Source: Flavobacteriales bacterium (GTDB taxonomy: Bacteria > Bacteroidota > Bacteroidia > Flavobacteriales_F > PHOS-HE28). Taken from it: DNA of 64,000 nt. Numbering within the stretch: position 1 is the first letter of the stretch; each line of letters starts with the position of its first letter. Below the pieces are notes generated by a model, which saw only the letters and a list, made by a program, of their open reading frames with translations, did no database searches and was not told the DNA's origin. The translations under genes were made by a program, and so were the position numbers. Positions 4,263 through 54,106 of the stretch are shown here, piece after piece. The DNA is taken from NCBI GenBank assembly GCA_016710965.1, contig JADJTW010000011.1, forward strand, positions 27,040 to 91,039, written 5' to 3'.

Positions 4263-5594
4263 ATGAAGCACGCCCTGAACCTGTTCGCGTCGGCATTGAT
4301 GATCCTGCTCGTCGGGCAGCTGCCGGCCCAGATCAACATCCAGGAACGCCTCGAGCGCAAGGCCAAGGAGCGCCTCGAGCGCAAAGTGGACCACACCATC
4401 GACAAGGGCTTCGATAAGACGGAGGAAGAAGTGGACAAGGAAGCGCGCGAAGCCACCAAGGGAAAAGGGAAGAAGGACAAGGACAAAGAAGCCGAAGCGG
4501 GCGGTGCTGCGGAAGGTGGGGCTGCCGGGGAAGGCAAGACCGATGGTGCCGCCGCCGGTGATGCCGCACCACGCACACTGAAAGCCTACAGCAAATTCGA
4601 TTTCGTGCCCGGCGAGCAGGTGGTGGCCGTGGAGGATTTCATGCAGGACGCCATCGGGGATTTCCCCGCGAAGTGGAACACCAACAGCGCCGGCGAAGTC
4701 GTGATGATCGACGGCAAGGAGGGGCGTTGGTTCAAGCTGAACGGCACCGGCCTCTTCTATCCGGAGTTCCTCGGCGTCATCCCGGACAACACCACGGTGG
4801 AATTCGACCTGGCCGTGCTGGGCGAATACAGCTACTACTGCAGATGCCTGGAGATGCACTTCAAGCACGATGCGGAGAACCTCTTCCGCCATGAGCCCCG
4901 CTCACTGGTTTCGGTCAACATCCATCCGCAGACCGCCGGAGGATCTGAGGGCAGTACGGCCATCGCGGTACACGCCGCCGATGGTGGCCCTTTGCTCAGC
5001 AACGATCGCGGCCAATCGCAGTTCGTTCACAAGGGCGTGGCGCCCTTCGTGCATGTTGCGCTCTGGCGCCAGAAGAACCGCCTGCGGCTCTACCTCAACG
5101 AAGAGAAGGTGTGGGACATCCCCCGCGCCTTCCAGAACGACGTCAACTACCGGCTGGTCTTCGAGACCGGCAGTTGCGATGAGAGCATTCCCTACATGGC
5201 CAACCTGCGCGTGGCCGTCGGCGCGCCCGACACGCGCAACAAGCTCATCACCGAAGGCCGCCTGGTTACGCGCGGCATCCTCTTCGACAGCGGCAGCGAC
5301 CGCATCAAGCCCGAGAGCTACGGCACGCTGAAGGACATCGCCACGGTGCTCACCGAGAACGCCGCCGTGCGCGTGCGCATCATCGGCCACACCGATAGCG
5401 ATGGTGAAGACGCGGCAAACATGGACCTGAGCAAGCGCCGCGCGGCAGCCGTGCGCGAGGCACTGAACAAGGAGTTCGCCATCGATGCCGCGCGCATGGA
5501 GACGGACGGCAAGGGCGAGGCCTCACCCGCAGGGCCCAACGACACGCCGCAAGGCAAGGCGAACAACAGAAGGGTGGAGTTCGTGAAGTTGTGA
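4263..5594 (+). CDS. OmpA-family protein with K/E-rich coiled-coil region
   Basis: Signal peptide, ERLERKAKERLERK repeats and a C-terminal OmpA-like domain (IIGHTDSDGEDAANMDLSKRRAAAV...NRRVEF). Confidence 0.8.
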   Translation: MKHALNLFASALMILLVGQLPAQINIQERLERKAKERLERKVDHTIDKGFDKTEEEVDKEAREATKGKGKKDKDKEAEAGGAAEGGAAGEGKTDGAAAGDAAPRTLKAYSKFDFVPGEQVVAVEDFMQDAIGDFPAKWNTNSAGEVVMIDGKEGRWFKLNGTGLFYPEFLGVIPDNTTVEFDLAVLGEYSYYCRCLEMHFKHDAENLFRHEPRSLVSVNIHPQTAGGSEGSTAIAVHAADGGPLLSNDRGQSQFVHKGVAPFVHVALWRQKNRLRLYLNEEKVWDIPRAFQNDVNYRLVFETGSCDESIPYMANLRVAVGAPDTRNKLITEGRLVTRGILFDSGSDRIKPESYGTLKDIATVLTENAAVRVRIIGHTDSDGEDAANMDLSKRRAAAVREALNKEFAIDAARMETDGKGEASPAGPNDTPQGKANNRRVEFVKL

Positions 5595-5609
5595 AGGCTG
5601 CGGCAGCGC

Positions 5610-5635
5610 CTTTCCGAGGCGGTTACCGAGGAAAG
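5610..5635. terminator. Possible bidirectional hairpin between convergent genes
   Basis: CTTTCC...GGAAAG stem with an inner CGGT/ACCG element. No clear U-tract. Confidence 0.2.
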
Positions 5636-5697
5636 AGCAGCTATTGCAACAGGAATTTAGGCGCGAGCAGCGCCGATCACCCTGTCTCGATCACGGA

Positions 5698-5960
5698 TCA
5701 CTCCACCACCATGTTCCCGCTGTACGTGCGCTTGCCGTTACTGAGGGTGACCATGTAGAAGCCGGGGCTCACGTCCCAAACATCCAGGCGTGGGCGTTCC
5801 TCATCCATGAGCAATTGCTGCTCGCTTACCATACGGCCGGTGCCATCGTAGATGCGCAATTGCAATTGCGCATCGTTTGCCAGCGCGCTGGGCACTTTGA
5901 GACGGAAGTTGCCGTTGTTGGGGTTGGCGTAGATCTCCAGGCTCGTATTCTCCAGCATGA
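5698..5960. repeat. Copy 1 of a near-identical direct repeat (3' end of paralog A)
   Basis: About 170 bp at roughly 95% identity with 7595-7770; beyond that the match decays to about 75%. Confidence 0.8.
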
Positions 5961-7387
5961 TGGATTGGGGCGTGCCAGTGAGCATGTCGTGCTTGGCCAG
6001 GAAGATGTCCATCCAGCCGTGGCTGTCGTAAGTCTCACTACCTATGGTGATGGAATATGGTACGGGTGTCACATCTGGAGGAAACGGACCGCTGACGAGG
6101 ACACTTCCATTGTCATAGGCAATACTGGAACCACTACCCATGCCTGCGTGTATCAGTTCCACTATATCCCCATCACTATCGCTGAGCGCGGAGAATGCGT
6201 CCAGGCCGGTATTCGCAGTATAGGTATTGCCTCCCAGTGCGATCTGGCCCTGCAAACTGCCGGTGAGCAACACCGCACCGGTCGGAGAGACATCGATGGC
6301 ATTGAAATCAAACGTATTCGTCCCTGAGTATTCACGGATGAACTCCATTGTGCCATCTGGACCGTATTTCGCCAGGAAGCCTCCGCCGTAGATGGTTGGC
6401 GCAATAAGTGTATCGATCTCGAAAGCAGCCGTATCGACATAAGTTCCGGCGGAATAGATGTTGCCACTTCCATCCAGGTCCATGCCGTATCGTCCAGCCC
6501 ATCCGTCGGGGAACCCATCGAGCTTCACCCATTCGGCTACGCCTGTCGCCGGATCGATGCTGGCGATGAGCTGGCCATGGCCCTGCCTGCCGAGGATCTG
6601 GATCGTATCGATCGCCGTCGTATCGTTCTCAGCGGTTATGAAAACATCTCCGTGGGCGAAGATCCGGTCGTTGAAGTAGCGCAGCACGTACGGCCGCACC
6701 CACTTGTTGATCCCATTGAACCCGGTGAAGGGCTTCACCCAGACCTCCTCGCCATCCGCATCGTATTTGCCCAGGAAGCAGCCGGTCTCCATGGGGGTGC
6801 CGCCCGCCACCGTGGTGCCGTTGTTATCCGTCGTCATGACCACCACCAGATCGCCGTTGCCATCTACCGTAATGGCCGTTGCGACCACGGCCGATGTCCC
6901 AGCGAAGCTCGTTGCGATGTTATGCGCCCAAAGGCAATGGCCATCAAGGTCCCATTTTGAGAGAAAAGCTGCGGACCATGGCGTGGACAACATGCATGTA
7001 TCCATCAACAAGAAAAAGTCGTAGTTGCCAATTACATAGAGATGCCCGGCATTGCTGTCCAATACCAGTGATTGGATGGCTGAGCGGTCGTAGCCCTCGA
7101 ATTGCCTCACCCATACCAGGTCGCCGTTCCCGGAGTACTTGGCCAGGAATTCGTCCCTGCTGCCCGGAAGCGTATCGCCTTCAGAAGTAGCAGCTATCGA
7201 AATCCGTTGGGCCGGCTGAACCAGCATACCAGCCGAACATGTAAACGGAATGTTCGGTATCCACGGCGCCGATATAGCCGCCATCCAAGCCCGGCCCTCC
7301 GATCTGCGTTGACCATTGCCAGGTTTGCGAGAAGCATGGTTGCAGTGAAAACACTCCCGTTAGGAGCAGTGCGGTCCTCATGGTCAT
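5698..7387 (-). CDS. SBBP beta-propeller-repeat surface protein with T9SS C-terminal sorting domain (paralog A); one frameshift near 7185
   Basis: N-terminal signal peptide in ORF 7181..7387 (MTMRTALLLTGVFSLQPCFSQ). Repeats such as FLAKYSGNGDLVWVRQF. C-terminal T9SS domain (NPNNGNFRLKVP...YMVTLSNGKRTYSGNMVVE). The N-terminal and main ORFs are in different frames and overlap at 7181-7284. Confidence 0.65.
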
Positions 7388-7500
7388 TGTCTCAGGAGTT
7401 TGCGGCTGTATCGCTGGCCAGTGGCATGCACGATCAGGGTGTACTCCGCCGGTGCGAATTCAGATAGGTCGAGGATGGTGCTCGTGGCGTTCATCGCGCG
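7384..7500 (-). pseudogene. Orphan remnant of a T9SS C-terminal domain
   Basis: ORF 7384..7581 ends ...STILDLSEFAPAEYTLIVHATGQRYSRKLLRQ. This resembles the last strands of a T9SS sorting domain, with no upstream gene body in frame. Confidence 0.3.
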
Positions 7501-7532
7501 TGAGATGAGCAATTCTCCGGTTTTAAACTCGC

Positions 7533-7561
7533 GCAGGGTCTCTCGTCTTCGAGGACCCTGC
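7533..7561 (-). terminator. Hairpin GCAGGGTC-N13-GACCCTGC downstream of paralog B
   Basis: Perfect 8-bp inverted repeat. It is followed on the minus strand by gcgagtttaaaacc, a weak U-rich stretch. Confidence 0.3.
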
Positions 7562-7594
7562 TCCCAACAGCGAAGGCGCAACCCATGCCCGAAG

Positions 7595-7860
7595 CTACTC
7601 CACCACCATGTTCCCGCTGTATATGCGCTTGCCGTTGCTCAACGTTACCATGTAGAAGCCGGGGCTCACGTCCCAAACATCCAGGCGTGGGCGTTCCTCA
7701 TCCATGAGCAACTGCTGCTCGCTTACCATACGGCCGGTGCCATCGTAGATGCGCAATTGCAATTGCGCTTCATTGGCCACGCGCTGGGTACCCTCAGGCG
7801 GAAACTGCCCTGATTGGGGTTGGCGTAGATCTCTAGGCCTGTGTTCTCCAACTGCATGGC
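7595..7860. repeat. Copy 2 of a near-identical direct repeat (3' end of paralog B)
   Basis: Direct comparison with 5698-5960. A stretch of about 110 bp has only one mismatch. Confidence 0.8.
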
Positions 7861-9276
7861 AGGGGGTACACCGGTGATCGATCCGTACTTGGCGAGTACG
7901 ATGTCCTCCCAACCATGGGTTGTGTAGCCTTCACTGCCGAATGTCGTGGTGCCCCAGGGGAAAAATTGTGAAAATCCACTACAGACTACTGCATTGTCCC
8001 CACTAACCTGCCGTTGCCCGGCCGTGCCCAGGGGGCTGGGCAAACGCCAGTGGATTGCCTAAAGAATCAAGCGAGGCAAGGAAGAGGTCACCATACTGAG
8101 ATGCGGAAAAGTGTTTCCGCCAAGTTCTATTTGCTCATTGAGTAAGCCTGTAACAAGCAGATTGCCGCTGGCTAGGACATCTATCCCTTGAAAGAAGAAT
8201 GAGCCGGTACCGTCGAACTCACGGACCCATGCTGGCGAACCATCAGATGTGTACTTGATCAACATACCATTCAAATCGTTATCTGGTGATTGAAGAGTAT
8301 CGTATGCCACGACGGCATTCTGATAGTAGCCACACGCTATATGGATGCTTCCGTCCTGGGCGACATCCATTTGAGCGGGATTTCCCCTTGCGCCCGGGTA
8401 TCCATCCAATCGAATCCACTCCGCAATCCCACTAGCGGTGTCGAGACTTGCTAGAATGAATCCATCCCCTATTCGGCCAATCACGCTTATCGTGTCCACG
8501 GTTGTGGTATCGCCCGATTGTTGGATATGGGCAAGTCCGTGCCCAACAATGCGAGCCCCATTCAGCCTCAGCGTACTAATGCCGACGCGCTTCTGATTTC
8601 CTTGATAGGAACAGAACGGCTTGGCCCAGATCAATTCACCGCTTGCAGACAACTTGACCAAGAAGGACCCATTGGGAATTGATTCGTTCTCCACCACTGT
8701 AGTTTCGTATTCATCGGTGGACAACGAAACAAAGATGCTCCCACCGGGCAGCTTGGCCATCGTAATGCCGTATACCCTGCTCGACTCGAAGGCTAGGCTT
8801 GTGGCAATGTTCCTCACCCACAGGCATCGCCCGTCCAAAGTCCACCTGGAAATCGCCACTGCAGCGGAGGGTGATGCAACCGAACAGGGTGTCCAAATAA
8901 CAGGCTGCGATATAGTTCGCGAGAACAATAGCGACGAGCCGGCACTGTCGAGAACAACAGCGCTGAGATTGACATTGCTGGTTGGACTGTTCAAGCTTCG
9001 AGCCCAAAGGAGGGCTCCGTTCGCATCGGTTTTTGCTATGAAACTGTCATCGCTGCCCAATAGCGTGTCTGTGCCGAAGTAGCAATCGGAGTAGGTCATG
9101 GATGTCCATGGTCTGGCATAGTCGCCGAACCAATAGATGGCACCTTGTGCATCGATCGCTCCAATGTGCGCATTGTCAATTCCAGGACCGCCTACATGCT
9201 GTGACCAAAGCCATTCTTGGGCGACTAGCCGAGCAACAAGAAAGAGGCATGGAAGAGTGAGGAATGCACGCATGGC
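7595..9276 (-). pseudogene. SBBP beta-propeller-repeat T9SS cargo protein (paralog B), split over three reading frames with an internal deletion
   Basis: ORF 8059..9354 (signal peptide MRAFLTLPCLFLVARLVAQ plus SBBP repeats), ORF 7723..8043 and ORF 7595..7912 are consecutive pieces in different frames. About 60 aa are missing relative to paralog A between GGNTF and SEGYTTHGW. Confidence 0.55.
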
Positions 9277-9287
9277 CTTAGTGTTTG

Positions 9288-11707
9288 ACAACGATTTTCG
9301 AATGCAGCAGATGCTCGTTGGAACTAACGCGGAGCGTGTACGTCCCCGCAGCAACGGTTCGAAGGTCCAACGCGAACTGCGGGCCCCCGAACGATTTGCT
9401 CAAGACCCGATTGCCGCGGCTATCGAGCAACTCGACACCGATCGACCCTGTTTCAACCCAGGCCCCTGCTTCTATTGGGATGTCGAAGTGATCGCCAGGT
9501 TGGTTTGATACGGATGCTCGGAGGACTCGCTGTTGTATGCACGCCGAGTTCGATCTCCTTGTCCTGTTCCACGAAGGACGTCGGGGGGCCTTGGACGAAG
9601 GACACCGATGTACTCCGCAAATTCACGCTCGCGATGTCCTCGCACGTGAAGACGACCGGTGCGGTATGCGCATGGACTTCGCAGCCTGTGAGGGCGCGGA
9701 ATTCCTGCCCCCAATGCACAGCGTAGCGGGCCTTCATATCGGAGCGGCCGCCCACAACTTCGTTCTCGAAGGACAGGCTTGCCAGTGCTTCGAAATTCTG
9801 CGTCTCGTTCGACCAGACAACAGCGTACTCCACAACCTGGTCCACCTGGCTGACCAGTGATTGCAGCGCGTGGGTGGCTCCTGGCAGAAAAGGATAGAAG
9901 GCATTGTCTTCTCCCACGTAGCCCTTCTTCATCCATGCCGTAGCATAAGCGCCGAATTTGATGTCCCAGATGATTTTGTCCAGCACCTCCCCGGGCACGT
10001 TAGGGTTCAATGGATTGCCTGGCGCCGGATCATACGCCCTTATCTCGAATTCTCCGTTGTCATCGGTGTAGCCCGAATGCGTGTACATTGTCGGACTCGG
10101 ATTCGGGAGAAAGGGGTTATCCACACCAACCCATCCGACGGCGTGAACCGCCGCGCCTGCAATCGGGTTTCCACCTTGATCAACCAGCCTTCCTGTAAGC
10201 GTTCCATAGTAGGCCTGGCCCCACACGTCAGTGTACACCGTTGAGTTCGATGGATGCCCGTACGGATTGTAGTACGCGTCGTTCATATCCACCGTGGGCG
10301 AGACCGGACCGTATTGCACGGATGGCGCTGGCGGGTTAGTCACCCACGAGACGAAGGTCTCCGCCGCCTGCTTGCGCAATGCCTCGTAGCCCGTGATACC
10401 GTTGACGAGGTCCATCGGTCCGGGATCGCCCGATTTGTGGATCCCATAGTACCGTTCGAGTAGTCCTGCGGTGAGTTCGGATCATTCGGTATCGGCGGCC
10501 ATGGCGGCGGATCGGCGTACCAGTGGATGTTCTGGAAGACCCACCACCCATAGCCGGCACAGCGCGAGCCAAGGACGAGCGGGAATGTGGCGCGCAGGAA
10601 ATCATCCTGGTCCTGCTCGCTTCCGAGCAGGTACGGATACGCATAGCTTGGATAGCCATTGGGATTGTCCTGTCCTTGGAAACCGGTCTCAGTGATGATG
10701 TACGGCTTGCGGATGAAACGGTCGTATTCGTACAGCATATCGGCGTAGCGCTTTGTGGCCTTGTCCAAGAAGGTGGAGGGGTCATCGTCATGCTCGAACC
10801 GATCGTGAAGCAGATAGAGATGCATGGTCGCAAAGTCGACCTCGAGCAGCAACGGATCCCAACCTTCGCGCCAGAGGTCGTCCATGAACACACCCCCGAT
10901 GGTGGTAAGATGGCCGGGATCCACCTGTTTCAGCCTCTGGTTCCAAGCGTGCGCTATCTCACAGATCTGCGCCCTTGTGTGTTTCGGCAGGACCTCTGGC
11001 CTTCCATCGGTAAAAGTCGGCTCACCGTAGAATTCGTACGCGAGCAGGTTCGTCACATCCTGTGCCTCAATGAAGGTGGCAATGGCCTCGATGTAGTCGA
11101 GGTGATCCTGGATCTCGGGCCAATCGGCGTTCAGGTCGAGCGCATGAACATCGCCGCCTATCTCGAACAAAACCTTCATGCCCACTGTATTCGCCAGACT
11201 GCATACTTGGAGCACCGTGTTCATTTGGAATTCGAACACCAGGTTCGCTTGCGGATCGTACGGCGGGTCCAGGTTGAGGAACAATTCGTCCTGTCCCGAT
11301 GGAAAGGCCTTGATCGACAGCAGATGCCCGTCGCCGGCCTTCTTCGTCACCCGGCTCAGGTATCGGATGGTATTGAATCCCATGGCTTTCATCTCGTGGA
11401 GGTCTTGCACGATGCTGGCCGGACCAGCCGCGATGCTGGGATAGGCGCACTGTCCGGTGGCGCCGAAGAAGGACGAGCGGCCGTAGCCGCAAGGTGCCAG
11501 CTCGGCAGCGCTGGGGTCGAGGGACGGTGGAGCATTGGAAGGATAGAAGAAATCGATGAAGTAGTTCATCACCATCGGGAAGAACGGTGCTCCGTTCTCA
11601 TCGATGAACTGATCTCCTTGAAGCCGGATATAGCCGGGTTGCGCCATCGCAGTGCCTACGGCAAGGCACACGAGGAAGACAAGTGCTCGTGCCATGGCGC
11701 TGCTCAC
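9288..11707 (-). CDS. GH5-family glycoside hydrolase with CarbopepD_reg-like module and T9SS C-terminal domain; at least two frameshifts
   Basis: ORF 10340..11707 has a signal peptide, GFNTIRY, YGEP and YIITETG (GH5 catalytic motifs). ORF 9453..10415, in a different frame, contains LTGRLVDQGGNPIAGAAVHAVG...YTDDNGEFEI. A T9SS C-terminal domain (PGDHFDIPIEAGAWVETGSIGVELLDSRGNRVL...GTYTLRVSSNEHLLHSKIVVKH) was found by manual translation of 9288..9485 in a third frame. Confidence 0.65.
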
Positions 11708-13243
11708 TTCTTGGCGGCTATGGTTTCCTCCAACCGTGCGATGCGCTCTTCCAGTTGCAGGATGTACAGCGCCTGCTCCTCCACCACCTGCAGCATGCGC
11801 ACCTGCAGGTCGCCCACTTCCACCCCGCCCTTGGCCGCCACTTCGGCGGCGCTGGGTATGCCGGGCAAGTGGTAGTGCTCATTCAGGTATTCGCGCAACT
11901 CGTCCAAGGAGCGCAGCGCGTAATCGTTGGCGAAGACGAAGTCCGGGAAATCCTCGGCGGTCACCAGCACATCGCGGGTAACGATGCCGCCTTCGACGTA
12001 GAGCTTGTACAAGCTGCTCGTGCCGAACTCGGCGTTGCCGATCCCCACTCGGCCGATGTCATCGACCCGCAGGCGCACCGCATCGGAAACATCGTCCCAG
12101 AGGAAGAAGTCCTGCCCGCCATCGGCGTCGAAATCGCAGCCGAGCCCCCAGCGTTGCGCGCCCGCAGCGGCGAAGCGGATCTCGCTGTGCGCATTGCCCG
12201 CTGCGGTGTTCACCAGGCTCATGCCACCGCGTTCATCGGCGTGGTGTACTTCGAATCGGTTCGTCGGATCGGATGAGCCGATGGCTACACGGCCTGCGGA
12301 TGTTATCCGCATGCGTTCCTGGTTGTATGTCTTCAATACCAACGGTTGCTCATTGATGCTCCCGAGGAATCCCGAAGTTGCTGATATAGTTGCCGCAGCG
12401 TGTCCACGGCAGTGCTCCGTGGTCAGGACATCCTTCGGGTATCGTCGGAATATCGCCGTCGACAAAGCGCTTCAAGTTGCCCAAGCTGTCGATGTAGAGC
12501 ATGGCTGGTGTGTTGGCGGAGAGGCCGGGGAACTTCATGACGCCGTCGGCCGGATAGCCGGAACCGTTCGATGCCATCGCTCTTGAACACCACGTCCTGC
12601 GCATCGCTGGTGCCCAGGTATTGGGCGTCGGGGTCGGTGTTGGCATTGCCGCCCATCTGCCAATCGCTGCGCTCGGGCTGGGTAAGGGTGATGCGCTCGC
12701 TGCCGACCCTGCATTGGTTGGCATCGGTAACGCTTACCGCGTAGGGCAAGGCGCCGAGCGCGCTGCGGTCCTGGGTGTACACCTCATCGCCCCAGTCGTA
12801 GCTGTAGGGCGGCACGCCGCCTTCCATCGTTACATCGATGCTGCCGTTGTAGCACTCGTAGCAGCTGATGTTGTAGCCGCTCAGGTACCGGTAGGGCGTT
12901 GCGCTTACTTGAAGGGCCACAGGCTCCACCAAGGTGATCTGCGCCTGCACCTCAACGAAGTCGGCATCCTTCACGCTGATGATGTAGAGCCCGGCGGCCA
13001 GACCGGTCTGGTCCTCGGCGTTCGATCCATTGGACCACTGGATGATGTACGGCGCAGTGCCACCCGTGATCGTGGCATCGATGGCGCCGTCCTGCGCGCC
13101 GAAGCAGGTGATGTGGTAGCCGTTATGGTCCGGCGCGTCCAGCGTGACTTGGAGGGTTTGCGCGGAGAGCGCACTAGCGCATAGCGCGAACGTCAGCAGC
13201 GAGATGGATCTTGCGGGGGGGGCAGAAAACGCTGTGTGCTCAT
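11704..13243 (-). CDS. SprB-repeat cell-surface protein with a tail-fibre / peptidase-S74-like C-terminal chaperone domain; split over three or more frames
   Basis: The ATG at 13243 is followed by an 8-C tract. With 9 C the reading frame gives MSTQRFLPPPARSISLLTFALCASALSAQ, then SprB repeats (YHITCFGAQDGAIDATITGGTAPYIIQWSNGS; ISCYECYNGSIDVTMEGGVPPYSYDWG). ORF 11704..12465 ends ...HLPGIPSAAEVAAKGGVEVGDL...LQLEERIARLEE, which is S74-like. Confidence 0.55.
13215..13222. repeat. Poly-G homopolymer (8 G on the + strand; poly-C in the minus-strand coding sequence)
   Basis: ttgcGGGGGGGGcag. It lies 21 nt downstream of the ATG of the SprB-like gene. A tract length of 9 would restore the frame. Confidence 0.9.
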
Positions 13244-13307
13244 GGCCTTGGGTTCAGTAGTTCGCTTTCGACAGGTCGAAGGTGCGCATGCCTCTGGGCT
13301 ATTCGCA

Positions 13308-13325
13308 ATACCTGTTTCCAGGTAT
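13308..13325 (-). promoter_or_regulatory. Palindrome site 1: ATACCTG-TTTC-CAGGTAT (GAAA centre on the minus strand)
   Basis: Perfect 7-bp arms. Sits about 65-80 bp upstream of the minus-strand SprB-like gene start. Confidence 0.4.
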
Positions 13326-13335
13326 TTTTCGAGTG

Positions 13336-13359
13336 TAATGATGTCATTAAGCATCATTA
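13336..13359. promoter_or_regulatory. Inverted repeat TAATGATG-N8-CATCATTA
   Basis: Perfect 8-bp arms in an AT-rich stretch between palindrome sites 1 and 2, inside a divergent promoter region. Confidence 0.35.
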
Positions 13360-13369
13360 GCAGCAGCAT

Positions 13370-13387
13370 CTACCTGGAAACAGGTGG
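13370..13387 (+). promoter_or_regulatory. Palindrome site 2: CTACCTG-GAAA-CAGGTGG
   Basis: One mismatch in the arms. Sits about 80 bp upstream of the plus-strand FAD oxidoreductase gene. Confidence 0.4.
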
Positions 13388-13467
13388 AGGAGCATATCGG
13401 TCGTGAGGCGAGCGGGTCTGGGTAACCAGCATTCCCTGTAGCATGGAACTCACCCCATCTTCGCCTC

Positions 13468-14517
13468 GTGCCTTTCACCCACGACGTCATCATCATCGGC
13501 CAGGGGCTTGCGGGCACCTTGCTCAGCGAGACGTTTGCCGATAGGGGCCTGCGCGTGATGGTCTTCGATGCGCCGCGTGCCAGGCGCTCGAGCGCGGTGG
13601 CTACGGGCATCATCAACCCCATCGTATTGCGGCGCACGGTGCCCACCTGGCGCGGCTCGGAGATGCTGGCCATAGCCGGTGCGTACTACCGTGAGTTGGA
13701 ATTGGACTACGACGCCAGCTTCTGGCGCCCCATGCCGCTGGTGGAGCTTTTCCCCACGGCGCAGGAGGCCGGGCTATGGCACGCGCGGATGAAGGAAGAG
13801 GAGCTGGCGCGCATGATCGCGCTCGGCAGCGGCGATGATCCGGCGGTGGCACAACTTCCTCAACCCTACGGTTGCGGCATGGTGAAGCGCTGCGCGTGGC
13901 TCGACATCCCTGCGTTGTTGCTTGCCCACCGCGAGCGATGGATGCGCTCGGGGGCTTTGGAAGAGCGCGCAGTGGAGCAGAGCGATGTGCGCGCCATCGA
14001 TGGTGGTGTTGAGCTCGCTGATCGTACAGCCCCTGTGCTGGTCTGGTGCGCCGGGCCCTTCCATAGCGTGAAAGGACTGGTGCCCGTTCGCGGCGAGGGA
14101 CTCACCGTACGACTTCCCGGCCTCGCGCTGCGCTCGATCGTGCATCGTGGGCTCTTCCTGCTGCCGATCGGTGACGAGGTGTATCGCGCTGGCGCCACCT
14201 TCAACTGGGACGATGTGTGGAGCGGGCGCACGGAGAAAGCGCGCCATCAGTTGCTGGACAAGCTCTCGCGCATCTGGAGCGGTGAAGTGGAAGTGCTGGA
14301 CCATTGGGCAGGCGTGCGCCCTGCCGCCGTGGACCGTCGTCCGATCCTCGGCCGGATCGATGCGCATCAAGCGGTATTCACCGGTCTGGGCTCGCGCGGT
14401 GGTTTGTTGGCACCATGGTGCGCCGCGCACCTGGCCGATCATCTCCTCACGGGCACTCCCTTGGACCCCGAAGTGGACCTCAAGCGGTTCACCGAACAGC
14501 CTCCGCCTTCTCTTTGA
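13468..14517 (+). CDS. FAD-dependent oxidoreductase (DAO / MnmC-C-terminal-like)
   Basis: N-terminal VIIIGQGLAG dinucleotide-binding motif; 349 aa. Confidence 0.65.
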   Translation: MPFTHDVIIIGQGLAGTLLSETFADRGLRVMVFDAPRARRSSAVATGIINPIVLRRTVPTWRGSEMLAIAGAYYRELELDYDASFWRPMPLVELFPTAQEAGLWHARMKEEELARMIALGSGDDPAVAQLPQPYGCGMVKRCAWLDIPALLLAHRERWMRSGALEERAVEQSDVRAIDGGVELADRTAPVLVWCAGPFHSVKGLVPVRGEGLTVRLPGLALRSIVHRGLFLLPIGDEVYRAGATFNWDDVWSGRTEKARHQLLDKLSRIWSGEVEVLDHWAGVRPAAVDRRPILGRIDAHQAVFTGLGSRGGLLAPWCAAHLADHLLTGTPLDPEVDLKRFTEQPPPSL

Positions 14518-14773: not shown

Positions 14774-17700
14774 ATGAATACGAGCTTTGCGCACCGCCTT
14801 CGTCGCGCCGCTCCGACCATGCTGAAACCAGCCCTCCGCACCGCCCTTGTCCTATCCGTCGCCGCTGCCGTCCTCTTCGGTTGCCGCACCACGCACGAAA
14901 GCGTACGCAGTGTACAGCGTGCGGATCCACGCTGGTCGGCCATCGACTCCCTGGCGAACCTCGGGCAATACGCTACGGCGTTGGAGCGCACCGATTCGCT
15001 CCTGGCCGAGGCTGAGCGCAGCGGTGATTGGCGCACCGAGTTCAAGGCGTGGATACGCCGTGCCGAGTTCCGCGACTATGCCGGTGTGGAGGATGTTCTG
15101 ACGCTCAAGGAGCTGGGCGATCGAGCGCGCATCGCGCCGGTGCCACTAGCCCAGCTATTGCACAGTGTCCGCGCCGAGGGATGGTGGACCAAGTACAGCA
15201 ACGAACGATGGATCATCCTCGAACGCACGGAACTGGCGACTGTTAGCGACGACGACCCCGAGACGTGGACCCAGCGACGGTACATGGAAGAAGTGATCGG
15301 GGCGTTCTCGGCCTCGGTGCGACCGATGGACACGCTTGCGCGGATCCCTGTCGGCGAGCTCGGGATACTGCTTGAAGGCGATAGTGGAGCGCACTACCTG
15401 CGGCCCACGCTCTTCGATCTGCTCGCGCACAGGGCCATTGCTGTTTTCCGCAACAGCGAAACTCGACTGGCTGAGCCCGCCTGGCGCTTCACGCTGGACG
15501 ACCCGCACTACTTCACGCTCTTCGAGCCCTTCGCTATGCGGCCCTTGCGCCACCGGGACAGTACAGCATGGGAGTTCCAGGCTTTGCGCCTCTATCAAGA
15601 GATGGAGCGTATCCATTTGGTGGATGATACCATCGCCGCGTACGTGGACCTGGTGACGGACCGCCTGGCATACGTGCATGAGCACTGCGCGCTGCCCAAC
15701 AAGGATTCGTTGCATCTGGCGGCATTGGAACAGCTGCGCACGCGCCTTCCCGAGGATGTGTGCTGGAGCGAGACCACCGTGGAGATCGCTCGCTGGCACG
15801 CCCGCGCCGCCGGGCGCTACGACCGACTGAATGGCGATGCGTGGAAGTGGGAGCGCAAGCGGGCGGTGGAACTATGCGACTCGGCGATCGCACGTTGGCC
15901 GAAGTCCTTCGGCGCGCGCAATGCACGGGCCTTGAGAGAGCGATTGAAGCAAGCCGAGATGAATGTGCAGTGCGAGCAGGCCGTGCCCTCGCGTAAGGAC
16001 TTCCTCATTTCTCTGGAGTACCGCAATGCTCCGCATGTATGGCTGCGTGTGGTGAAGGACCCGGCGAAGGAGGGCGAACGCCAGTATGGACAAGAACATG
16101 CGGTGCGCCTGGCCGCCATGAAGCCAGAGCTTGCTTGGGACATCGCCCTTCCGGACGACGGCGACCTGAACAGCCATCGCGTGGAGTTGCCCGTTGCAGG
16201 ACTGCCTTACGGCAAGTACGTGGTCCTTGCCAGCACGAGCGCCGCCTTCAATGCGATCGAGTACCCGATGGTGTGGTGCAACTTGCAAGTGACGGACATG
16301 TCCGTTGTTCGTCGCGAAAGCGGGACCAACCTCGAACTCCTGGTGCTTGATCGGACGAGCGGCCTTCCCTTGCCCGGCGTGATGGCCACGCTCTTCGTCG
16401 AAGACTTTTCCAGCGGTGAGAGGCGCAAGGAGAAGCTGGCGCATTGGTCACCGATGCAGAAGGACGCGTGCGCTCTCCCCGTACGATGCGCAATGGGCGC
16501 GCTGAGTGGCTGCTCGAGAACAACGACGACCGGTACACTTCCCAGAACCTGTACATCTATCCGCGATTCGAAGGCGAGTCCGTGGACCTCCGGACCTTCC
16601 TGTTCACGGACCGCGCCATTTACCGGCCCGGGCAGGAGATGCATGTGAAGGGGATCGTGACCACGAGGAGGGGGAAGAACGCAGAGATCGTCACCGGCTA
16701 TCGCGCTCGGGTGTTCTTCCATGATGTGAACGGCGACGTGATCGACTCGCTGATCGCCACAACCGATGCGTATGGCGCATTCCACGGGACCTTCACCACA
16801 CCGGTCGGCAGGCTCACGGGCCTCATGCACCTCCACGAAGAGCACGGCGACAAGTGGATCCGTGTCGAAGAGTACAAGCGGCCCACCTTCGAGGCACGAT
16901 TCGAACCCATATCTGCCACGCCCACGCTCGGCGATGAAGCCATGGTGGTCGGAACGGCCTTGAGCTACGCCGGAGCGCCGCTCGATGGCGCCAGCGTGCG
17001 CTACACGGTAAGGCGCAGCGCGCGCATGCCGTGGTGGTGCGGCTGGCAGTGGCGGGGCCTCGGTTGGTGGCGGCAGACCGAAGTCGCCAGCGGCGAAGCG
17101 ACCTGCGACGCACAGGGGCGGTTCATCGTGCGCTTCAAGGCCGAGGCCTCGCGCGCCTTCCCGCGCGCGGCAGACCCTTCGTTCGCCTTCGATGTAGAAG
17201 CATGGGTGACCGACATCAACGGAGAGACGCAGAGCGCCAGCACCTCCTTCGTCGTGGGCTACCGCAGCATCGAGCCCCTGCTCGGTGTCGAAGACGCCGT
17301 CGATCGCAGTATGGCCGATAGCCTGCTGGCGCGCATCGACAACCTCAATGGACAGCGCGTCGATATCCCTTTCGATCTACGCATCACACGACTGCTTCGG
17401 CCAGAAGGGCGTGTCAAGCGTACGCGCCTGTGGGAGCGCCCCGATCAACAGGTGCTGACCGACGAGGAATTCGCACAGCGCTTCCCCGATGACGAACGCA
17501 CCGACATGGATGATCCCGTGAATTGGGCCCGTGGTGCAGTGGTACTGGATCAACATGGACTTTCGCCGGAAGGCAAGCAGGTTGCGCTTGCGGGCGTCCG
17601 TGATTGGGAAGTGGGCACTTACATCGCCGAGTTGGATGTGGTCGACCCTGGCGGACAGCCCGTGAGGGTGTCAAGGACCTTCACGTTGTTCGACCCGGAT

Positions 17701-20700
17701 ATCCAGCACACGGGATTCGAGAACGAAGCATTCCATGTGGAGGTGCTCAATGCGCAGTGCGAGCCGGGCGAGAAGGCTGTGCTGCTATTGAGCAGCGCGC
17801 TGCCCGCCTGCCGTGTGCTCATGGAGGTGGAACGCGATGGCGCCATCGTTGTCAGTCGCCCCTTCACCTTGCGCAATGGCCAGCAGCGTGTGGAGCTGCC
17901 GGTGCTCGAAGGAGATCGCGGCGGCTTCGCCGTGCATTTCGTGTGCGTGGAACGAGGACGGGATCATAACAGCACGCAATGGATCGATGTGCCGTGGAGC
18001 AACAAGGAGCTCAAGGTGGAATGGATGAGCTTCCGCGACAAGCTGCTGCCCGGCGCTAGGGAGGAATGGAGGTTGCGTATCACCGGACCGAAGAAGGAGA
18101 AGGTGACGGCGCAGTTGCTGGCCGCGATGTATGATGCATCGCTCGATGTCTTCGAAACGCCGGATTGGTCCATGCCGATCCATGGCTCCAACAACGCCCT
18201 GCACGCATGGGCGCACAGCGAGCCATTCGGTATCGGCGGCGGATACCACAACTACGTGCAACGCTATGCCATTGCCGATAGCGCTCGCCGATATCCGCTC
18301 CTGGTCGGCGAGCTTCCACAGCGACGCATGAGGAGGCGGTTCCGTACGACAGCCGCACCCCCCACCGATGGTCGCATGGACATGGCCGGAGATGCGGCCG
18401 AGATGGAAGCGACGAGGTCGTTCAGCCTGGCTGCAGGGCTGACCGATGGGTCCCTTCAGGAAGAAGATGAAGCGGACAAGAACGGAGGTGAGCGCACCGA
18501 AGCCGCCACGCAAGCGACCTCTCCAGGTAGCGCCTCTTTGCGCACCGACTTCCGCGAAACGGCTTTCTTCTTCCCCGACCTGCTCACCGATCGCGATGGC
18601 GAGGTGGTGCTCCGTTTCACTATGCCCGATGCGCTCACGCGTTGGAACTTCATGGGCTTTGCGCACACCAAGGAGCTGCAGCTGGCGCACATCGCGCGCA
18701 GCACCATCACCCAGAAACCGTTGATGGTGATCCCCAACCTGCCACGCTTCTTGCGCCAAGGCGATCGTATCACGCTCACGGCAAAGATCAACAAGGTTGA
18801 AGAAGGTGCTGCCAGCGGCACGGCGCGCCTTGAGCTCTTCGACCCGCGGACCAATGCCGCTATCACCTCCCGCTTCATCGCCGCCCGCACCGAACGGGCA
18901 TTCACCGCTGCGCCCGGGAGCAGCGCCAATGTCAGCTGGGCGCTGCAAGTGCCTGAGGGCGTCGATGCTGTTGCCGTGCGTATCACGGCATCCGGCATCG
19001 GCTTCAGCGATGGCGAAGAGCGCGTGCTGCCGATCCTCACGGACAAGGTGCTCGTCACGGAGAGCGTCCCCATGGCAATCACCAAGGCCGGCACCAAGAC
19101 ATTCGAGCTGCCGAACCTGCTTAACGCCGCAGACAGTCCTACGATCGAGCATCGTTCACTGACGCTGGAGTACACGCCCAACCCGGCATGGTATGCTGTG
19201 CAAGCCCTGCCGTACATGATGGAGTTCCCGCACGAATGCGCCGAGCAGGTCTTCAGCCGGTACTACGCGAACCGCCTCGCAACGCATATCGTTCGGCAGC
19301 GCCCCGCAGTGAAGAGGGTGTTCGAGGCGTGGAGCAAGGGCGCACCGGGCAACGAAGGCGCCTTCCTGAGCGCGCTGGAGAAGAACCCCGAGCTGCGCAG
19401 CGTATTGCTGGAGGAAACACCGTGGGTGATGAATGCGAAGGACGAGAGCGAACGCAAGCGCCGCATCGCGCTCTTCTTCGACCTGCACCGCATGGCCAAC
19501 GAAGAAGCCATGAGCTTGAAGAAGCTGGGCGACATGCAACGGCCCAACGGTGCATGGCCATGGTGGAGCGGCATGCAACCATCACGATACATCACCCAGC
19601 ACATCGTGGCGGGCTTCGGGCACCTCCAGAAGCTGGGCGCGCTCGACGATGATCCCGACACCGATGCACGACGCATGGTGAAGAGCGCCGTTGAGTGGCT
19701 GGACAAGCAAGCCGATGAGGACTACCGGCGCATGCTGCGCGACTTCAAGGGCGATAGCATCCCGCACCCGTCAGCGGAGGACATACACTACCTGTACGCG
19801 CGCACCTGCTTCCCGCAATATCCCTTCGATCGCAGGCGCGATGGGCTTGCGGAGTTCATCATCACACGGGCCGAGCGCTATTGGCTGCACTACGGCTTGC
19901 AGGAACAGGCTATGATCGCCATCGCGCTGCACAGGCTCGGCAACCAGGACGTGCCCGCGCTCATCATGGAATCGCTTTCGCAACGGGCAACCCTGAGCGA
20001 AGAGCTCGGCATGTACTGGAAGGGCTTCCACGTCGGCTACTACTGGTACGAGTTCCCAACGGAGACGCACGCGCTCATGATCGAAGCCTTCGACTTGGTG
20101 ACCAAAGACAAGCAGAAGGTGAACGCCTTGCGCCAATACCTGTTGAAGCTGAAGCAGACCACGGATTGGCGAACGACCAAAGCCACTGCTGATGCCTGCT
20201 ATGCACTACTGCTCACTGGCGACGATTGGCTGGAGGCCCGGAACGCCCCGGCGATCAGCGTGGGCGGCGAGCGGGTGAGGCCGCAGGCGCAGGAAGCGGG
20301 AACGGGTTATTTCACGAAGGCCTGGCAGGGCAACGAGGTGAAGCCGGCGATGGGCAGGGTTTCGGTGACCAGCACGGACGACGCCTTGCAATGGGGCGCC
20401 TTGCACTGGCAGTACTTCGAGCGCATGGACAAAGTGATGCCGCATGAGAGCCCCTTCAGCCTGCGCAGGCAAGTGATGCTGAACGAGCGGACGGACGCTG
20501 GTGCGCGACTGATCCCGCTCGATAGTGCGCGTGCATTGAAGGCCGGGGACAAGCTCACCGTGCGCGTTGAACTGCGCACGGATCGCTACCTGGATTACGT
20601 GCATCTCAAGGACTTGCGTGCAGCGGGCCTCGAACCTGTGGCCACTATCAGCGGTTACCAATGGAAGGGCGGCCTCGGCTACTACCAAAGCATCCGCGAC

Positions 20701-20877
20701 GCGGCCATGAATTTCTTCTTCGACCGCATCCCGCCGGGCACCTACGTGTTCGAGTACGACCTGAAGGCCACGCATACCGGCGTGTTCAGCAATGGCATCA
20801 CCAGCGCGCAATGCATGTACGCCCCGGAATTCTCCTCTCATAGCGCTGGGCTTGTGATCACCATCGGGCAACCGTAG
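14774..20877 (+). CDS. Alpha-2-macroglobulin family lipoprotein with thioester motif; frameshift near 16440
   Basis: Lipobox LSVAAAVLFGC. The A2M body shows MG-domain-like repeats and a thioester motif HECAEQ. ORFs 14147..16648 and 16444..20877 are consecutive pieces in frames offset by one base (...RRKEKLA / ALVTDAEGRV). Confidence 0.8.
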
Positions 20878-44087: not shown

Positions 44088-45545
44088 TCAGAACTCCGCG
44101 CTCTTCGGTGTTCTTGGGAAGGGGATCACATCGCGGATGTTCGACATTCCGGTGACGAACAACACGAAGCGCTCCAGACCAAGCCCGAAGCCCGCATGCG
44201 GCACCGTGCCGAACTTCCGCGTGTCGAGGTACCACCAGAGTTCTTCGGCGGGCACGTTCATGTCCTTCATGCGCGCTTCCAATACATCGAGGCGTTCCTC
44301 GCGCTGGCTGCCACCGATGATCTCGCCGATGCCGGGGAAGAGCACATCCATCGCGGCAACGGTCTTGCCCTTCTCGCTGTAACCGAAATCGCCGGGCGCG
44401 TTGGTGCGCATATAGAAGGCCTTGATCTGCGCGGGATAGCCCGTAACGATCACCGGCTTCTTGAAATGCTTTTCCACCAAGTAGCGCTCGTGCTCGCTCT
44501 GCAGATCGATTCCCCATTCCACTGGGAACTGGAACTGCTTCTTCTGGTAGGGCTTGCTCCGCAGAAGGATGTTTATCGCATCGTCATAGGTGATGCGCTC
44601 GAAAGGGTTCTCCAGCACGAACTTCAAGCGATCGATGAGGCCCATTTCGCTGCGCTGCGCCTGTGGCTTGGTCGCTTCCTCTTCCTTCAAGCGCGCATCG
44701 AGGAACTGCAGATCATCCATGCTGTTCTTCAGCACGCGGGCGATCAAGTGCTTGCACAAACCTTCTGCGAGGTCCATGTCGCCCTTCAGGTCCATGAAGG
44801 CGGCCTCGGGCTCGATCATCCAGAACTCGGCGAGGTGGCGCGCGGTGTTGCTGTTCTCGGCGCGGAAGGTGGGGCCGAAGGTGTAGACCTTGCCTAACGC
44901 GAGTGCCGCCAACTCTGCTTGCAATTGTCCGCTTACTGTGAGGCGGGATTCTCGTCCGAAGAAGTCCTCCTTGAAGTCCACGCTGCCATCCTCCGTGAGC
45001 GGAGGGTTCTTGGCATCGAGGACGCTCACGCGGAACATTTCGCCCGCACCCTCTGCATCGCTCGCGGTGATGATCGGTGCGTGGAAGTAGTTGTAGCCCT
45101 GTTGGTCGAAATACTCGTGTATGCCGAAGCTCACTTGGTGGCGGATCCGGAAGATGGCGCTGTAGGTGTTGGTGCGGAAGCGCAGGTGCGCGTTCTCGCG
45201 CAGGAATTCCAACGAGTGCTTCTTGGGCTGTATCGGGTAGGCCGCAGCATCGCTGTCGCCGAGGATTTCAATGGCGGCCACCTTCATCTCCACATGCTGG
45301 CCGCTGCCCTGGGAGGGAACGAGCTCGCCGGTACACCTCACCGCAGCGCTCGTGGTGAAGCGCGCGCGAATCTCCGGCCCGACCTTCTCCTGATCGACCA
45401 CGCACTGCAGATTGCGGATCGTGCTTCCGTCGTTGAGGGCGATGAAACGGTCGTTGCGGAAGGTGCGCACCCAACCCGCCACGGTAGTGGCGGTGCCGGG
45501 GGGGATTTCGCTGTCCAGCGCTGATTTGATCGAGGTGGGTTCCAT
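44088..45545 (-). CDS. asnS: Asparagine--tRNA ligase
   Basis: FGPTFRAENSNTARHLAEFWMIEPE class-II motif 2, GSQREERLDVL, and a C-terminal IPFPRTP; aligns along its length with E. coli AsnS. Confidence 0.9.
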   Translation of the reverse strand: MEPTSIKSALDSEIPPGTATTVAGWVRTFRNDRFIALNDGSTIRNLQCVVDQEKVGPEIRARFTTSAAVRCTGELVPSQGSGQHVEMKVAAIEILGDSDAAAYPIQPKKHSLEFLRENAHLRFRTNTYSAIFRIRHQVSFGIHEYFDQQGYNYFHAPIITASDAEGAGEMFRVSVLDAKNPPLTEDGSVDFKEDFFGRESRLTVSGQLQAELAALALGKVYTFGPTFRAENSNTARHLAEFWMIEPEAAFMDLKGDMDLAEGLCKHLIARVLKNSMDDLQFLDARLKEEEATKPQAQRSEMGLIDRLKFVLENPFERITYDDAINILLRSKPYQKKQFQFPVEWGIDLQSEHERYLVEKHFKKPVIVTGYPAQIKAFYMRTNAPGDFGYSEKGKTVAAMDVLFPGIGEIIGGSQREERLDVLEARMKDMNVPAEELWWYLDTRKFGTVPHAGFGLGLERFVLFVTGMSNIRDVIPFPRTPKSAEF

Positions 45546-54020: not shown

Positions 54021-54106
54021 CAGTCGCTTCTTGCTGGAGGGTCGATCATGCTTGCTTGCTGTGTGGTTTGCTTGCTCATCTCCATCTCCCCCCCGCTCAA
54101 AGCTCA

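What the first reader, a model, noticed from the sequence alone, without database searches (positions are those of the whole stretch)
13215..13243. 8-G homopolymer 21 nt into the SprB-repeat surface-protein gene; a +1 length change restores a signal-peptide reading frame
With 8 G, the ATG at 13243 terminates after 16 codons. With 9 G it reads MSTQRFLPPPARSISLLTFALCASALSAQ followed by SprB repeats. This is either a homopolymer sequencing error or a slipped-strand phase-variable switch on a gliding or adhesin-type surface protein.
Basis: partly seen in the sequence, partly recalled or inferred. Interest (0 to 1): 0.55.

Follow-up and report, generated by a model that had tools for sequence, protein, structure and literature searches.

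The report
Probable assembly indel, not a switch
The run of eight G's really does break the start of a fibre-like surface-protein gene. But that gene carries two more frameshifts and its neighbours carry eight more, so this is most likely an assembly error (or a dead gene), not an on/off switch.

Summary
G8 lies at 13215-13222 (C8 on the coding minus strand), 21 nt after the ATG at 13243. As assembled, that frame stops after 16 codons. One extra G gives MSTQRFLPPPARSISLLTFALCASALSAQ followed by two SprB repeats.

The switch reading fails on one point: 9 G would not restore the protein. Colinearity with ~500-aa homologues needs two further 1-nt corrections, near 12553 and 12365, and neither is at a homopolymer.

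I count at least 11 frameshifts in the window. Nine lie in 5610-13456, a strain-variable segment that short-read assemblies of relatives lack. The other two hit an alpha-2-macroglobulin gene and a response regulator.

All the damage is indels. There are no nonsense codons, and the repaired protein keeps 106 of 108 homologue-invariant residues.

The source is an NCBI Flavobacteriales MAG (locus tag IPL52_). Its accession series matches a Nanopore R9.4.1 activated-sludge MAG set. That link is inferred, not proven.

One G8 per window is no more than chance (2.6 expected). No homologue has a 5' tract.

Best reading: an unpolished long-read consensus indel (about 0.65). Rivals: a real pseudogene (about 0.22), a phase switch (about 0.06). 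Low interest.

The parts
13215..13222 (-). C8 (G8 on the + strand) homopolymer, codons 8-10 of the gene. It is one base short of (or two bases longer than) the length that keeps the ATG in frame with the signal peptide.
13241..13243 (-). ATG start codon. It is the only start available for the signal peptide. The mature-protein frame has no ATG/GTG/TTG between 13253 and 12974.
13158..13243 (-). Signal-peptide coding region (29 codons once one base is added). The A-Q cleavage motif is invariant in homologues.
11704..13243 (-). Whole disrupted gene: signal peptide, two SprB repeats, a beta-helix fibre-like region and a C-terminal coiled coil. It is ~512 aa after three frame corrections.
12540..12565 (-). 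Second frameshift: one extra base in ...CTATCCGGCCGAC.... No run of 4 or more.
12350..12385 (-). Third frameshift: one extra base between ...CGNYIS and SGFLGS.... No run of 4 or more.
9278..11695 (-). Next gene of the cassette: a GH5-like 'cellulase family' protein with a T9SS C-terminal domain. Homologues are ~800 aa. It has two frameshifts here (10523-10454 and about 9490).
7595..9273 (-). Third gene: a beta-propeller protein with a T9SS C-terminal domain, paralogue of the next gene. Three frameshifts (about 8105, 8000 and 7810).
5698..7387 (-). Fourth gene: a 562-aa beta-propeller T9SS protein. The window has one extra base at 7183 compared with the short-read relative L018, where the gene is intact. 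dN/dS is 0.29.
7322..13406 (.). Segment absent from relative L018 (92% nt identity in the flanks). The wider segment 5610-13456 is absent from L016 and L017. Nine of the 11 or more frameshifts in the window lie in the wider segment.

Best explanation
The G8 is most likely a one-base under-call of a longer G run, probably G9. It sits in a poorly polished stretch of a long-read metagenome-assembled genome. The real gene is probably intact and encodes a secreted, fibre-like protein with two SprB repeats. That gene is the first of a conserved cassette: fibre protein, then a GH5-like enzyme, then beta-propeller proteins with T9SS sorting domains.

Shown:
- The tract, the start codon and the effect of adding one base.
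- Two more frameshifts in the same gene and eight more elsewhere in the window.
- Their concentration in a strain-variable segment.
- That all the damage is indels.

Inferred:
- The source assembly was made from Nanopore R9.4.1 reads.
- The variable segment had low or mixed coverage, or attracted reads from paralogous cassettes, so short-read polishing failed there.
- The indels are therefore consensus errors rather than mutations.
For: 1. Restoring the tract is not enough. Colinearity with 13 homologues of about 500 aa needs corrections at about 12553 and about 12365 as well.
2. There are at least 11 frameshifts in 64 kb: SprB-repeat gene 3, GH5-like gene 2, T9SS paralogue 3, 562-aa T9SS gene 1, alpha-2-macroglobulin gene 1, REC-LytTR regulator 1.
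3. Nine of the 11 lie in 5610-13456, which is 12% of the window (binomial P = 3e-7). Short-read assemblies of relatives lack exactly this segment. That fits low or mixed read support.
4. The damage is indel-only. No in-frame nonsense codon appears in about 2,400 repaired codons. The repaired protein matches 106 of 108 columns invariant among homologues; intact homologues score 90-100% in leave-one-out. The 562-aa T9SS gene has dN/dS 0.29 against L018.
5. At 7183 the window has one extra base where the short-read relative is intact.
6. The source is NCBI MAG 'Flavobacteriales bacterium', locus tag IPL52_, proteins MBK84986xx on a 122-kb contig. A nearby accession, MBK8499871, sits on a 922-kb contig. 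A confirmed MAG of the Danish activated-sludge Nanopore set has IPP83_/MBL0127xxx, so the two appear to belong to the same series. That set was assembled with CANU, then polished with Racon, medaka and one round of Illumina Racon run with --include-unpolished. [quoted passage not shown]
7. Homopolymer indels that fragment gene calls are the known weakness of R9.4.1 consensus sequences (PMC9262707).
8. No protein identical to any fragment of this gene is in the 5.8-billion-protein set, although neighbouring proteins are. This fits the public record treating the gene as a pseudogene.
Against: - Only the G8 lies at a run longer than 4 nt. Six of the 11 junction windows hold no run of 4 or more. 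Well-polished Nanopore assemblies usually keep errors mainly at homopolymers.
- The link between this MAG and the Nanopore project rests on accession and locus-tag series and on contig size, not on a record I could read.
- No reads and no second assembly of this locus exist in any collection searched, so the true tract length is unknown.
- The intact T9SS gene in L018 only shows that the intact state is ancestral. It does not show that the window's extra base is an error.
Confidence: 0.65

Rival explanations
1. Real pseudogene. The whole four-gene cassette, a dispensable strain-specific insertion, has been inactivated and is decaying in this lineage. On this reading the G8 is one of several genuine frameshift mutations.
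For: - Every gene of the cassette is hit: 3, 2, 3 and 1 frameshifts.
- Close relatives lack the cassette, so it is dispensable.
- GC content in 5.8-11.6 kb is 52-58%, against 61-65% in the flanks.
- Most frameshifts are not at homopolymers.
- A paralogue in another MAG carries an in-frame TAG.
- Relative L015 has only a 56-aa ORF at this locus that weakly resembles the C-terminus of the family (E 0.002).
Against: - There are eleven disabling indels and no nonsense codon.
- Conserved residues are kept at the same rate as in functional homologues (106 of 108).
- dN/dS is 0.29 for the one gene with a close relative.
- Frameshifts also hit an alpha-2-macroglobulin gene and a response regulator outside the cassette.
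- The likely sequencing platform is indel-prone.
Confidence: 0.22
2. Slipped-strand phase variation. The G tract is a real contingency locus that switches the fibre-like protein, and by polarity perhaps the cassette, on at 9 or 6 G and off at 8 G. The other frameshifts in the gene would then be assembly errors.
For: - The tract lies in the first 30 nt of a secreted or surface protein gene, and one length change restores a plausible signal peptide.
- G/C tracts of 7-10 nt do phase-vary in other high-GC bacteria (Bordetella pertussis, PMC1891110; Mycobacterium tuberculosis, PMC10334774; both listed).
- A 5' tract gives an 8-aa truncated InlA in Listeria (PMC2831843).
Against: - As assembled, no tract length yields the full protein.
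- None of eight homologous loci has a G/C tract at the 5' end, and the PPP it encodes is unique to this protein.
- It is the only run of 8 or more in 64 kb, and 2.6 are expected by chance.
- The other two runs of 7 do not disrupt genes.
- No length polymorphism can be shown, because no second copy of the locus exists in the collections.
Confidence: 0.06
3. Recoding. The gene is expressed with 8 C, through a -1 ribosomal frameshift on C_CCC_CCG or through transcriptional slippage on the C8 run. Either would give the same MSTQRFLPPPARS... product.
For: From the sequence only: in the ATG frame, CTG CCC CCC CCG contains an X_XXY_YYZ heptamer. A -1 slip there yields exactly the 9-G protein.
Against: - Two further frameshifts downstream have no slippery site.
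- The tract is not conserved in homologues.
- I did not test for a downstream stimulatory structure.
- Recoding sites are normally conserved across orthologues (general knowledge).
Confidence: 0.02

Closest known systems
Residual indel errors in Nanopore R9.4.1 assemblies and MAGs (fragmented gene calls, IDEEL test)
   Same: A one-base deficit in a long G/C homopolymer. Many other single-base indels on the same contig split genes whose homologues are intact. The damage is indel-only. It clusters in a strain-variable, multi-copy cassette, where polishing is weakest.
   Different: Most of the other indels are not at homopolymers. The platform is inferred from accession series, not read from the record.
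Homopolymeric-tract phase variation of surface-protein genes (Listeria inlA 5' poly(A); Bordetella pertussis and Mycobacterium tuberculosis poly-G/C tracts)
   Same: A tract in the first codons of a secreted protein gene. One length truncates the product after a few residues and another restores it.
   Different: No ON length exists in the assembled gene. There is no tract in homologues, no evidence of length polymorphism, and no excess of tracts.
SprB gliding-motility adhesin of Flavobacterium johnsoniae
   Same: It shares the SprB repeat (PF13573).
   Different: About 512 aa with two repeats, against several thousand residues in SprB (from my own knowledge). Pfam and NCBIfam detect no T9SS sorting domain. 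The C-terminal half is a beta-helix fibre plus a coiled coil.
Bdellovibrio bacteriovorus fibre proteins (PDB 8ond, 8onc, 8oml) and phage tail fibres
   Same: The AF2 model of homologue P0003 (mean pLDDT 81) has these as its best PDB matches (Foldseek E 2e-6 to 1e-4). It also ends in a long coiled coil.
   Different: TM-scores are low (0.16-0.20 on the query). Sequence identity is 17-21%. The N-terminal SprB repeats and the signal peptide are not part of those fibres. I did not test trimerisation.

Membership tests
Simple-sequence-repeat (homopolymer) phase-variable contingency gene | A mutable tract (about 7 nt or more) in the 5' coding region or promoter | tested here: met
   G8/C8 at 13215-13222, 21 nt after the ATG.
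Simple-sequence-repeat (homopolymer) phase-variable contingency gene | One tract length gives an intact full-length reading frame | tested here: not met
   9 G gives 273 codons, of which about 231 are native. Two more frameshifts, at about 12553 and 12365, block the remaining ~280 residues.
Simple-sequence-repeat (homopolymer) phase-variable contingency gene | Tract length varies between reads, clones or strains | not testable with these tools
   No reads are available. No other assembly holds this locus. The relatives L015-L018 lack the gene.
Simple-sequence-repeat (homopolymer) phase-variable contingency gene | The tract is conserved in orthologues or paralogues, or tracts are enriched beyond chance | tested here: not met
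   No G/C run of 6 or more lies near the start in eight homologous loci. One G8 was observed against 2.58 expected per window.
SprB gliding adhesin | A very large repetitive protein with a T9SS C-terminal sorting domain | tested here: not met
   About 512 aa with two PF13573 repeats. No Por_Secre_tail or type B CTD hit in Pfam or NCBIfam.
SprB repeat-containing protein family (the ~500-aa fibre-like subgroup) | PF13573 repeats plus colinear full-length similarity to family members | tested here: met
   PF13573 E 2e-18. After three frame corrections, coverage is 95-98% and identity 50-58% to ~500-aa proteins.
Long-read consensus indel artefact | The assembly was made from error-prone long reads | tested here: inconclusive
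   The locus tag IPL52_ and the MBK84986xx accession series match a confirmed MAG of the Nanopore set (IPP83_/MBL0127xxx). Contigs of 122 kb and 922 kb also fit. I had no direct record of the platform.
Long-read consensus indel artefact | Single-base indels in several unrelated genes of the same contig | tested here: met
   At least 11 frameshifts in six genes.
Long-read consensus indel artefact | No nonsense codons and no substitution decay | tested here: met
   No in-frame stops after frame repair. 106 of 108 invariant residues are kept. dN/dS is 0.29.
Long-read consensus indel artefact | Accurate reads disagree with the assembly at the site | not testable with these tools
   No reads are available. 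The only proxy is the intact T9SS gene in short-read relative L018 at the position of the extra base at 7183.
Decaying pseudogene | Signs of relaxed selection (nonsense codons, loss of conserved residues, raised dN/dS) alongside the frameshifts | tested here: not met
   None seen. A very recent inactivation cannot be excluded.

The most novel reading that the evidence does not exclude
The G8 is genuine and is the OFF state of a slipped-strand switch on the first gene of a conserved cassette (fibre protein, GH5-like enzyme, T9SS beta-propeller proteins) in an uncultured high-GC Flavobacteriales bacterium. The other indels would then be assembly noise. To my knowledge (I did not check the literature), this would be an unusual case of homopolymer-based phase variation in Bacteroidota, where DNA inversion is the usual mechanism.
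Probability: 0.05. Interest if true: 0.45.

Novelty: not a real feature. Interest (0 to 1): 0.08.

Why it matters
As it stands, the finding matters mainly as a caution. A homopolymer frameshift at the start of a surface-protein gene looks like a contingency locus, but here it is one of at least eleven single-base indels on the contig. Nine of them sit in a strain-variable, multi-copy cassette, where long-read consensus and short-read polishing are weakest. Calling phase variation from such assemblies without reads would produce false positives.

If accurate reads showed an 8/9 G mixture with the rest of the gene intact, the case would become a modestly interesting example of tract-based switching in a T9SS-linked cassette of Bacteroidota.

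Tried and rejected
**Searches for an independent copy of the locus, to compare tract length. All failed.**
- Exact-protein look-ups of the neighbouring FAD oxidoreductase and Dxr found nothing.
- A protein-pattern scan of one genome per species found only homologues of 49% identity or less.
- A DNA pattern spanning the tract (GGATCTTGC-N6-11-CAGAAAACGCTG) found four chance hits in JGI metagenome contigs.
- The best protein homologue anywhere is 58% identical.

**Contigs of close relatives (83-92% nt identity), reached through the FAD oxidoreductase cluster.** All lack the gene. That gave the boundaries of the variable segment but no tract comparison.

**Attempts to tie locus tag IPL52 to a publication or to the supplement of the Nanopore MAG paper.** No hit. 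The link remains an inference from the accession series.

**Bacteroidota -7 promoter motif (TAnnTTTG) upstream of the ATG.** None found.

**Readings considered and rejected.**
- An alternative start codon in the mature frame: none exists.
- Recoding at the C8 run: there are two more frameshifts with no slippery site, and the tract is not conserved.
- Uniform sequencing error across the window: ORFs of 1,100-1,500 codons are intact elsewhere.
- Homopolymer association of all frameshifts: only one of the 11 is at a run longer than 4 nt.

Full report
**1. The observation**

The + strand carries GGGGGGGG at 13215-13222, so the coding minus strand has C8. An ATG lies at 13243-13241, with 21 nt between its first base and the run. 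As assembled, the ATG frame reads MSTQRFLPPPQDPSRC and stops.

The frame that encodes the mature protein is open from 13253. It contains no ATG, GTG or TTG until 12974, so with 8 G nothing can start translation of the signal peptide. Adding one base gives MSTQRFLPPPARSISLLTFALCASALSAQ. After it, the Pfam SprB repeat matches twice (PF13573, E 2e-18). The Ala-Gln at the predicted cleavage site is invariant in 13 homologues.

The tract itself is not statistically remarkable. It is the only run of 8 or more in the window, but dinucleotide-preserving shuffles give 2.58 such runs on average, and 83 of 100 shuffles have at least one.

**2. The gene**

Many are about 500 aa long and are named 'SprB repeat-containing protein' in Flavobacteriales MAGs. 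The best identity is 58%.

The alignment shows that the window's gene matches them end to end only after three frame corrections:
- the G tract, where the window is one base short;
- a site near 12553, with one extra base in CTATCCGGCCGAC;
- a site near 12365, with one extra base between CGNYIS and SGFLGS.

Neither of the last two lies at a homopolymer. With 9 G alone the product would be 273 codons, about 231 of them native, against about 512 for the full protein.

An AlphaFold2 model of the intact homologue P0003 has mean pLDDT 81. It shows two Ig-like SprB repeats, a beta-rich fibre-like region and a long C-terminal coiled coil. Its best PDB matches are the C-terminal beta-helix domains of Bdellovibrio fibre proteins (E 2e-6), followed by the adhesin SiiE and phage tail fibres. 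Pfam and NCBIfam detect no T9SS sorting domain. So 'fibre-like secreted or surface protein with SprB repeats' is fair. 'Gliding adhesin' is not shown.

**3. The neighbourhood**

The gene is the first of a tightly packed minus-strand cassette:
- the fibre-like protein (13243 to 11704);
- a GH5-like 'cellulase family' protein with a T9SS C-terminal domain (11695 to 9278);
- a beta-propeller T9SS protein (9273 to 7595);
- a paralogous 562-aa beta-propeller T9SS protein (7387 to 5698).

The same gene order occurs in five other Bacteroidota MAG loci (L001, L002/L003, L007, L008, L009).

In the window every gene of the cassette is frameshifted:
- The GH5-like gene has two. Its homologues are about 800 aa, and the public record holds only a 451-aa fragment, MBK8498632.1.
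- The first propeller gene has three.
- The second propeller gene has one: an extra base at 7183 compared with a short-read contig of a relative, in which the gene is intact.

Outside the cassette I found two more:
- An alpha-2-macroglobulin gene, near 16436-16445. Six homologues run straight across the junction.
- A REC-LytTR response regulator, near 46035-46050. The Pfam receiver domain is complete only when the two frames are merged.

The other genes of the window look intact, including ORFs of 1,132, 1,201 and 1,477 codons.

**4. The cassette is strain-variable**

The FAD oxidoreductase gene diverges from the fibre gene. Through its protein cluster I reached short-read contigs of relatives with 83-92% nucleotide identity.
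- In L016 and L017, window position 5609 joins directly to 13457.
- In L018, the sequence is colinear with 5049-7321 and then jumps to 13407.
- L015 holds 1.4 kb of unrelated sequence between the same flanking genes.

Nine of the 11 frameshifts lie in 5610-13456, which is 12% of the window (binomial P = 3e-7). GC content falls to 52-58% in 5.8-11.6 kb, against 61-65% in the flanks.

**5. Errors or real mutations?**

Several results favour errors.
- All 11 disruptions are single-base indels (about five deficits and six extras). After frame repair there is no in-frame stop codon in about 2,400 codons.
- The repaired fibre protein matches 106 of 108 columns invariant among 13 homologues. Intact homologues score 90-100% in the same leave-one-out test.
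- The 562-aa T9SS gene has dN/dS 0.29 against L018, in the range of its intact neighbours (0.13 and 0.31).
- The window belongs to an NCBI MAG, 'Flavobacteriales bacterium', locus tag IPL52_, proteins MBK8498622-668 on a 122-kb contig. A nearby accession sits on a 922-kb contig.
- A confirmed MAG of the Danish activated-sludge long-read study (Vibo_18-Q3-R45-57_BATAC.153) carries IPP83_ and MBL0127xxx, so it appears to belong to the same accession series.
- That study assembled Nanopore reads with CANU. It polished with Racon, two rounds of medaka and one round of Illumina Racon run with --include-unpolished. [quoted passage not shown]
- Homopolymer indels that fragment gene calls are the recognised weakness of R9.4.1 consensus sequences (PMC9262707).
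- A strain-variable cassette that is also multi-copy in related genomes is where read support is thinnest and short-read polishing most likely to fail or mis-map.

Some results count against errors.
- Only the G8 is at a run longer than 4 nt.
- The platform is inferred, not read from the record.
- A dispensable cassette is also where real pseudogenes would be expected.
- A paralogue in another MAG has an in-frame TAG.

I put the error reading at about 0.65 and a real pseudogene at about 0.22.

**6. Phase variation**

Four defining features were considered.
- A tract in the 5' coding region: met.
- A tract length that gives the full protein: not met in the assembled sequence.
- Length polymorphism: not testable, because no other assembly contains the locus.
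- Conservation or enrichment of tracts: not met. No homologous locus has a 5' G/C tract, the PPP it encodes is unique to this protein, and one G8 is within chance.

The reading survives only if the tract is real while the other two frameshifts in the same gene are errors. I give it about 0.06.

A -1 ribosomal slip on C_CCC_CCG, or transcriptional slippage, would produce the same protein. It faces the same objections (about 0.02).

**7. Comparison with known systems, and verdict**

In form, the finding resembles 5' homopolymer switches such as Listeria inlA (PMC2831843) or the poly-G/C tracts of Bordetella and Mycobacterium. It fails the membership test for that class. It best fits the known class of residual indels in long-read MAGs.

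As a biological feature it is most likely not real. Interest is low (0.08). Mapping the source reads across 5600-13500 would settle it.

Noticed in passing
window 5698-13243 (minus strand); L001, L002/L003, L007, L008, L009: A conserved cassette: a fibre-like SprB-repeat protein, then an ~800-aa GH5-like 'cellulase family' protein with a T9SS C-terminal domain, then one or two ~550-aa beta-propeller proteins with T9SS C-terminal domains. The same order recurs in several Bacteroidota MAGs. In L002/L003 the GH and propeller pair is duplicated.
   Followed up: partly
window 5610-13456 and 7322-13406: A strain-variable segment between an OmpA-like gene and the FAD oxidoreductase gene. It is wholly absent in L016 and L017, and 7322-13406 is absent in L018. 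L015 has 1.4 kb of different genes there. GC is 52-58% in 5.8-11.6 kb, against 61-65% in the flanks.
   Followed up: yes
window 14774-20877 (+), junction about 16436-16445: An alpha-2-macroglobulin family gene (MG2, A2M and bMG10 domains) is split by a one-base deficit. Six homologues are continuous across the junction.
   Followed up: yes
window 45765-46509 (+), junction about 46035-46050: A REC-LytTR response regulator is split inside the receiver domain by one extra base in GCCGCGCGCATCGCC. Pfam Response_reg covers positions 1-110 of 111 only when the two frames are merged.
   Followed up: yes
window 7183: One extra base (CTTC[A]GAAG on the + strand) creates a TGA in the 562-aa T9SS beta-propeller gene. 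The short-read relative L018 has CTTCGAAG and an intact gene.
   Followed up: yes
window 5700-5882 and 7597-7779: A 183-nt direct repeat (94% identical) encodes the T9SS C-terminal domains of the two propeller paralogues. The first copy holds a perfect 24-nt palindrome, GATGCGCAATTGCAATTGCGCATC; the second copy differs from it at one base.
   Followed up: no
window 13310-13385 (minus strand, 67-142 nt upstream of the ATG): Nested inverted repeats: ACCTGTTTCCAGGT (13385-13372) pairs with ACCTGGAAACAGGT (13323-13310). They flank TAATGATG (13359-13352) and CATCATTA (13343-13336). The predicted RNA fold is -34 kcal/mol. No Bacteroidota -7 promoter motif was found upstream of the gene.
   Followed up: partly
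L005 10001-11575 (JADKJM010000016.1): A paralogue of the fibre-like gene in a confirmed Nanopore-derived MAG carries an in-frame TAG (DVTV*EGVPPY). It is annotated only as a 136-aa fragment. The second copy in the same MAG (L007) is intact.
   Followed up: partly
L015 1056-1226: Next to the FAD oxidoreductase gene of a relative lies a 56-aa coiled-coil ORF. It weakly resembles the C-terminus of the fibre-like family (BLASTP E 0.002 over 32 residues). It may be a remnant of a lost cassette, or only a compositional similarity.
   Followed up: partly
window 45498-45504 and 54088-54094: These are the only other runs of 7 (G7 and C7). The first lies in frame inside the asparaginyl-tRNA synthetase gene. 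The second is intergenic, upstream of a gene for a 766-aa protein with an N-terminal CarboxypepD_reg domain. Neither disrupts a gene.
   Followed up: yes
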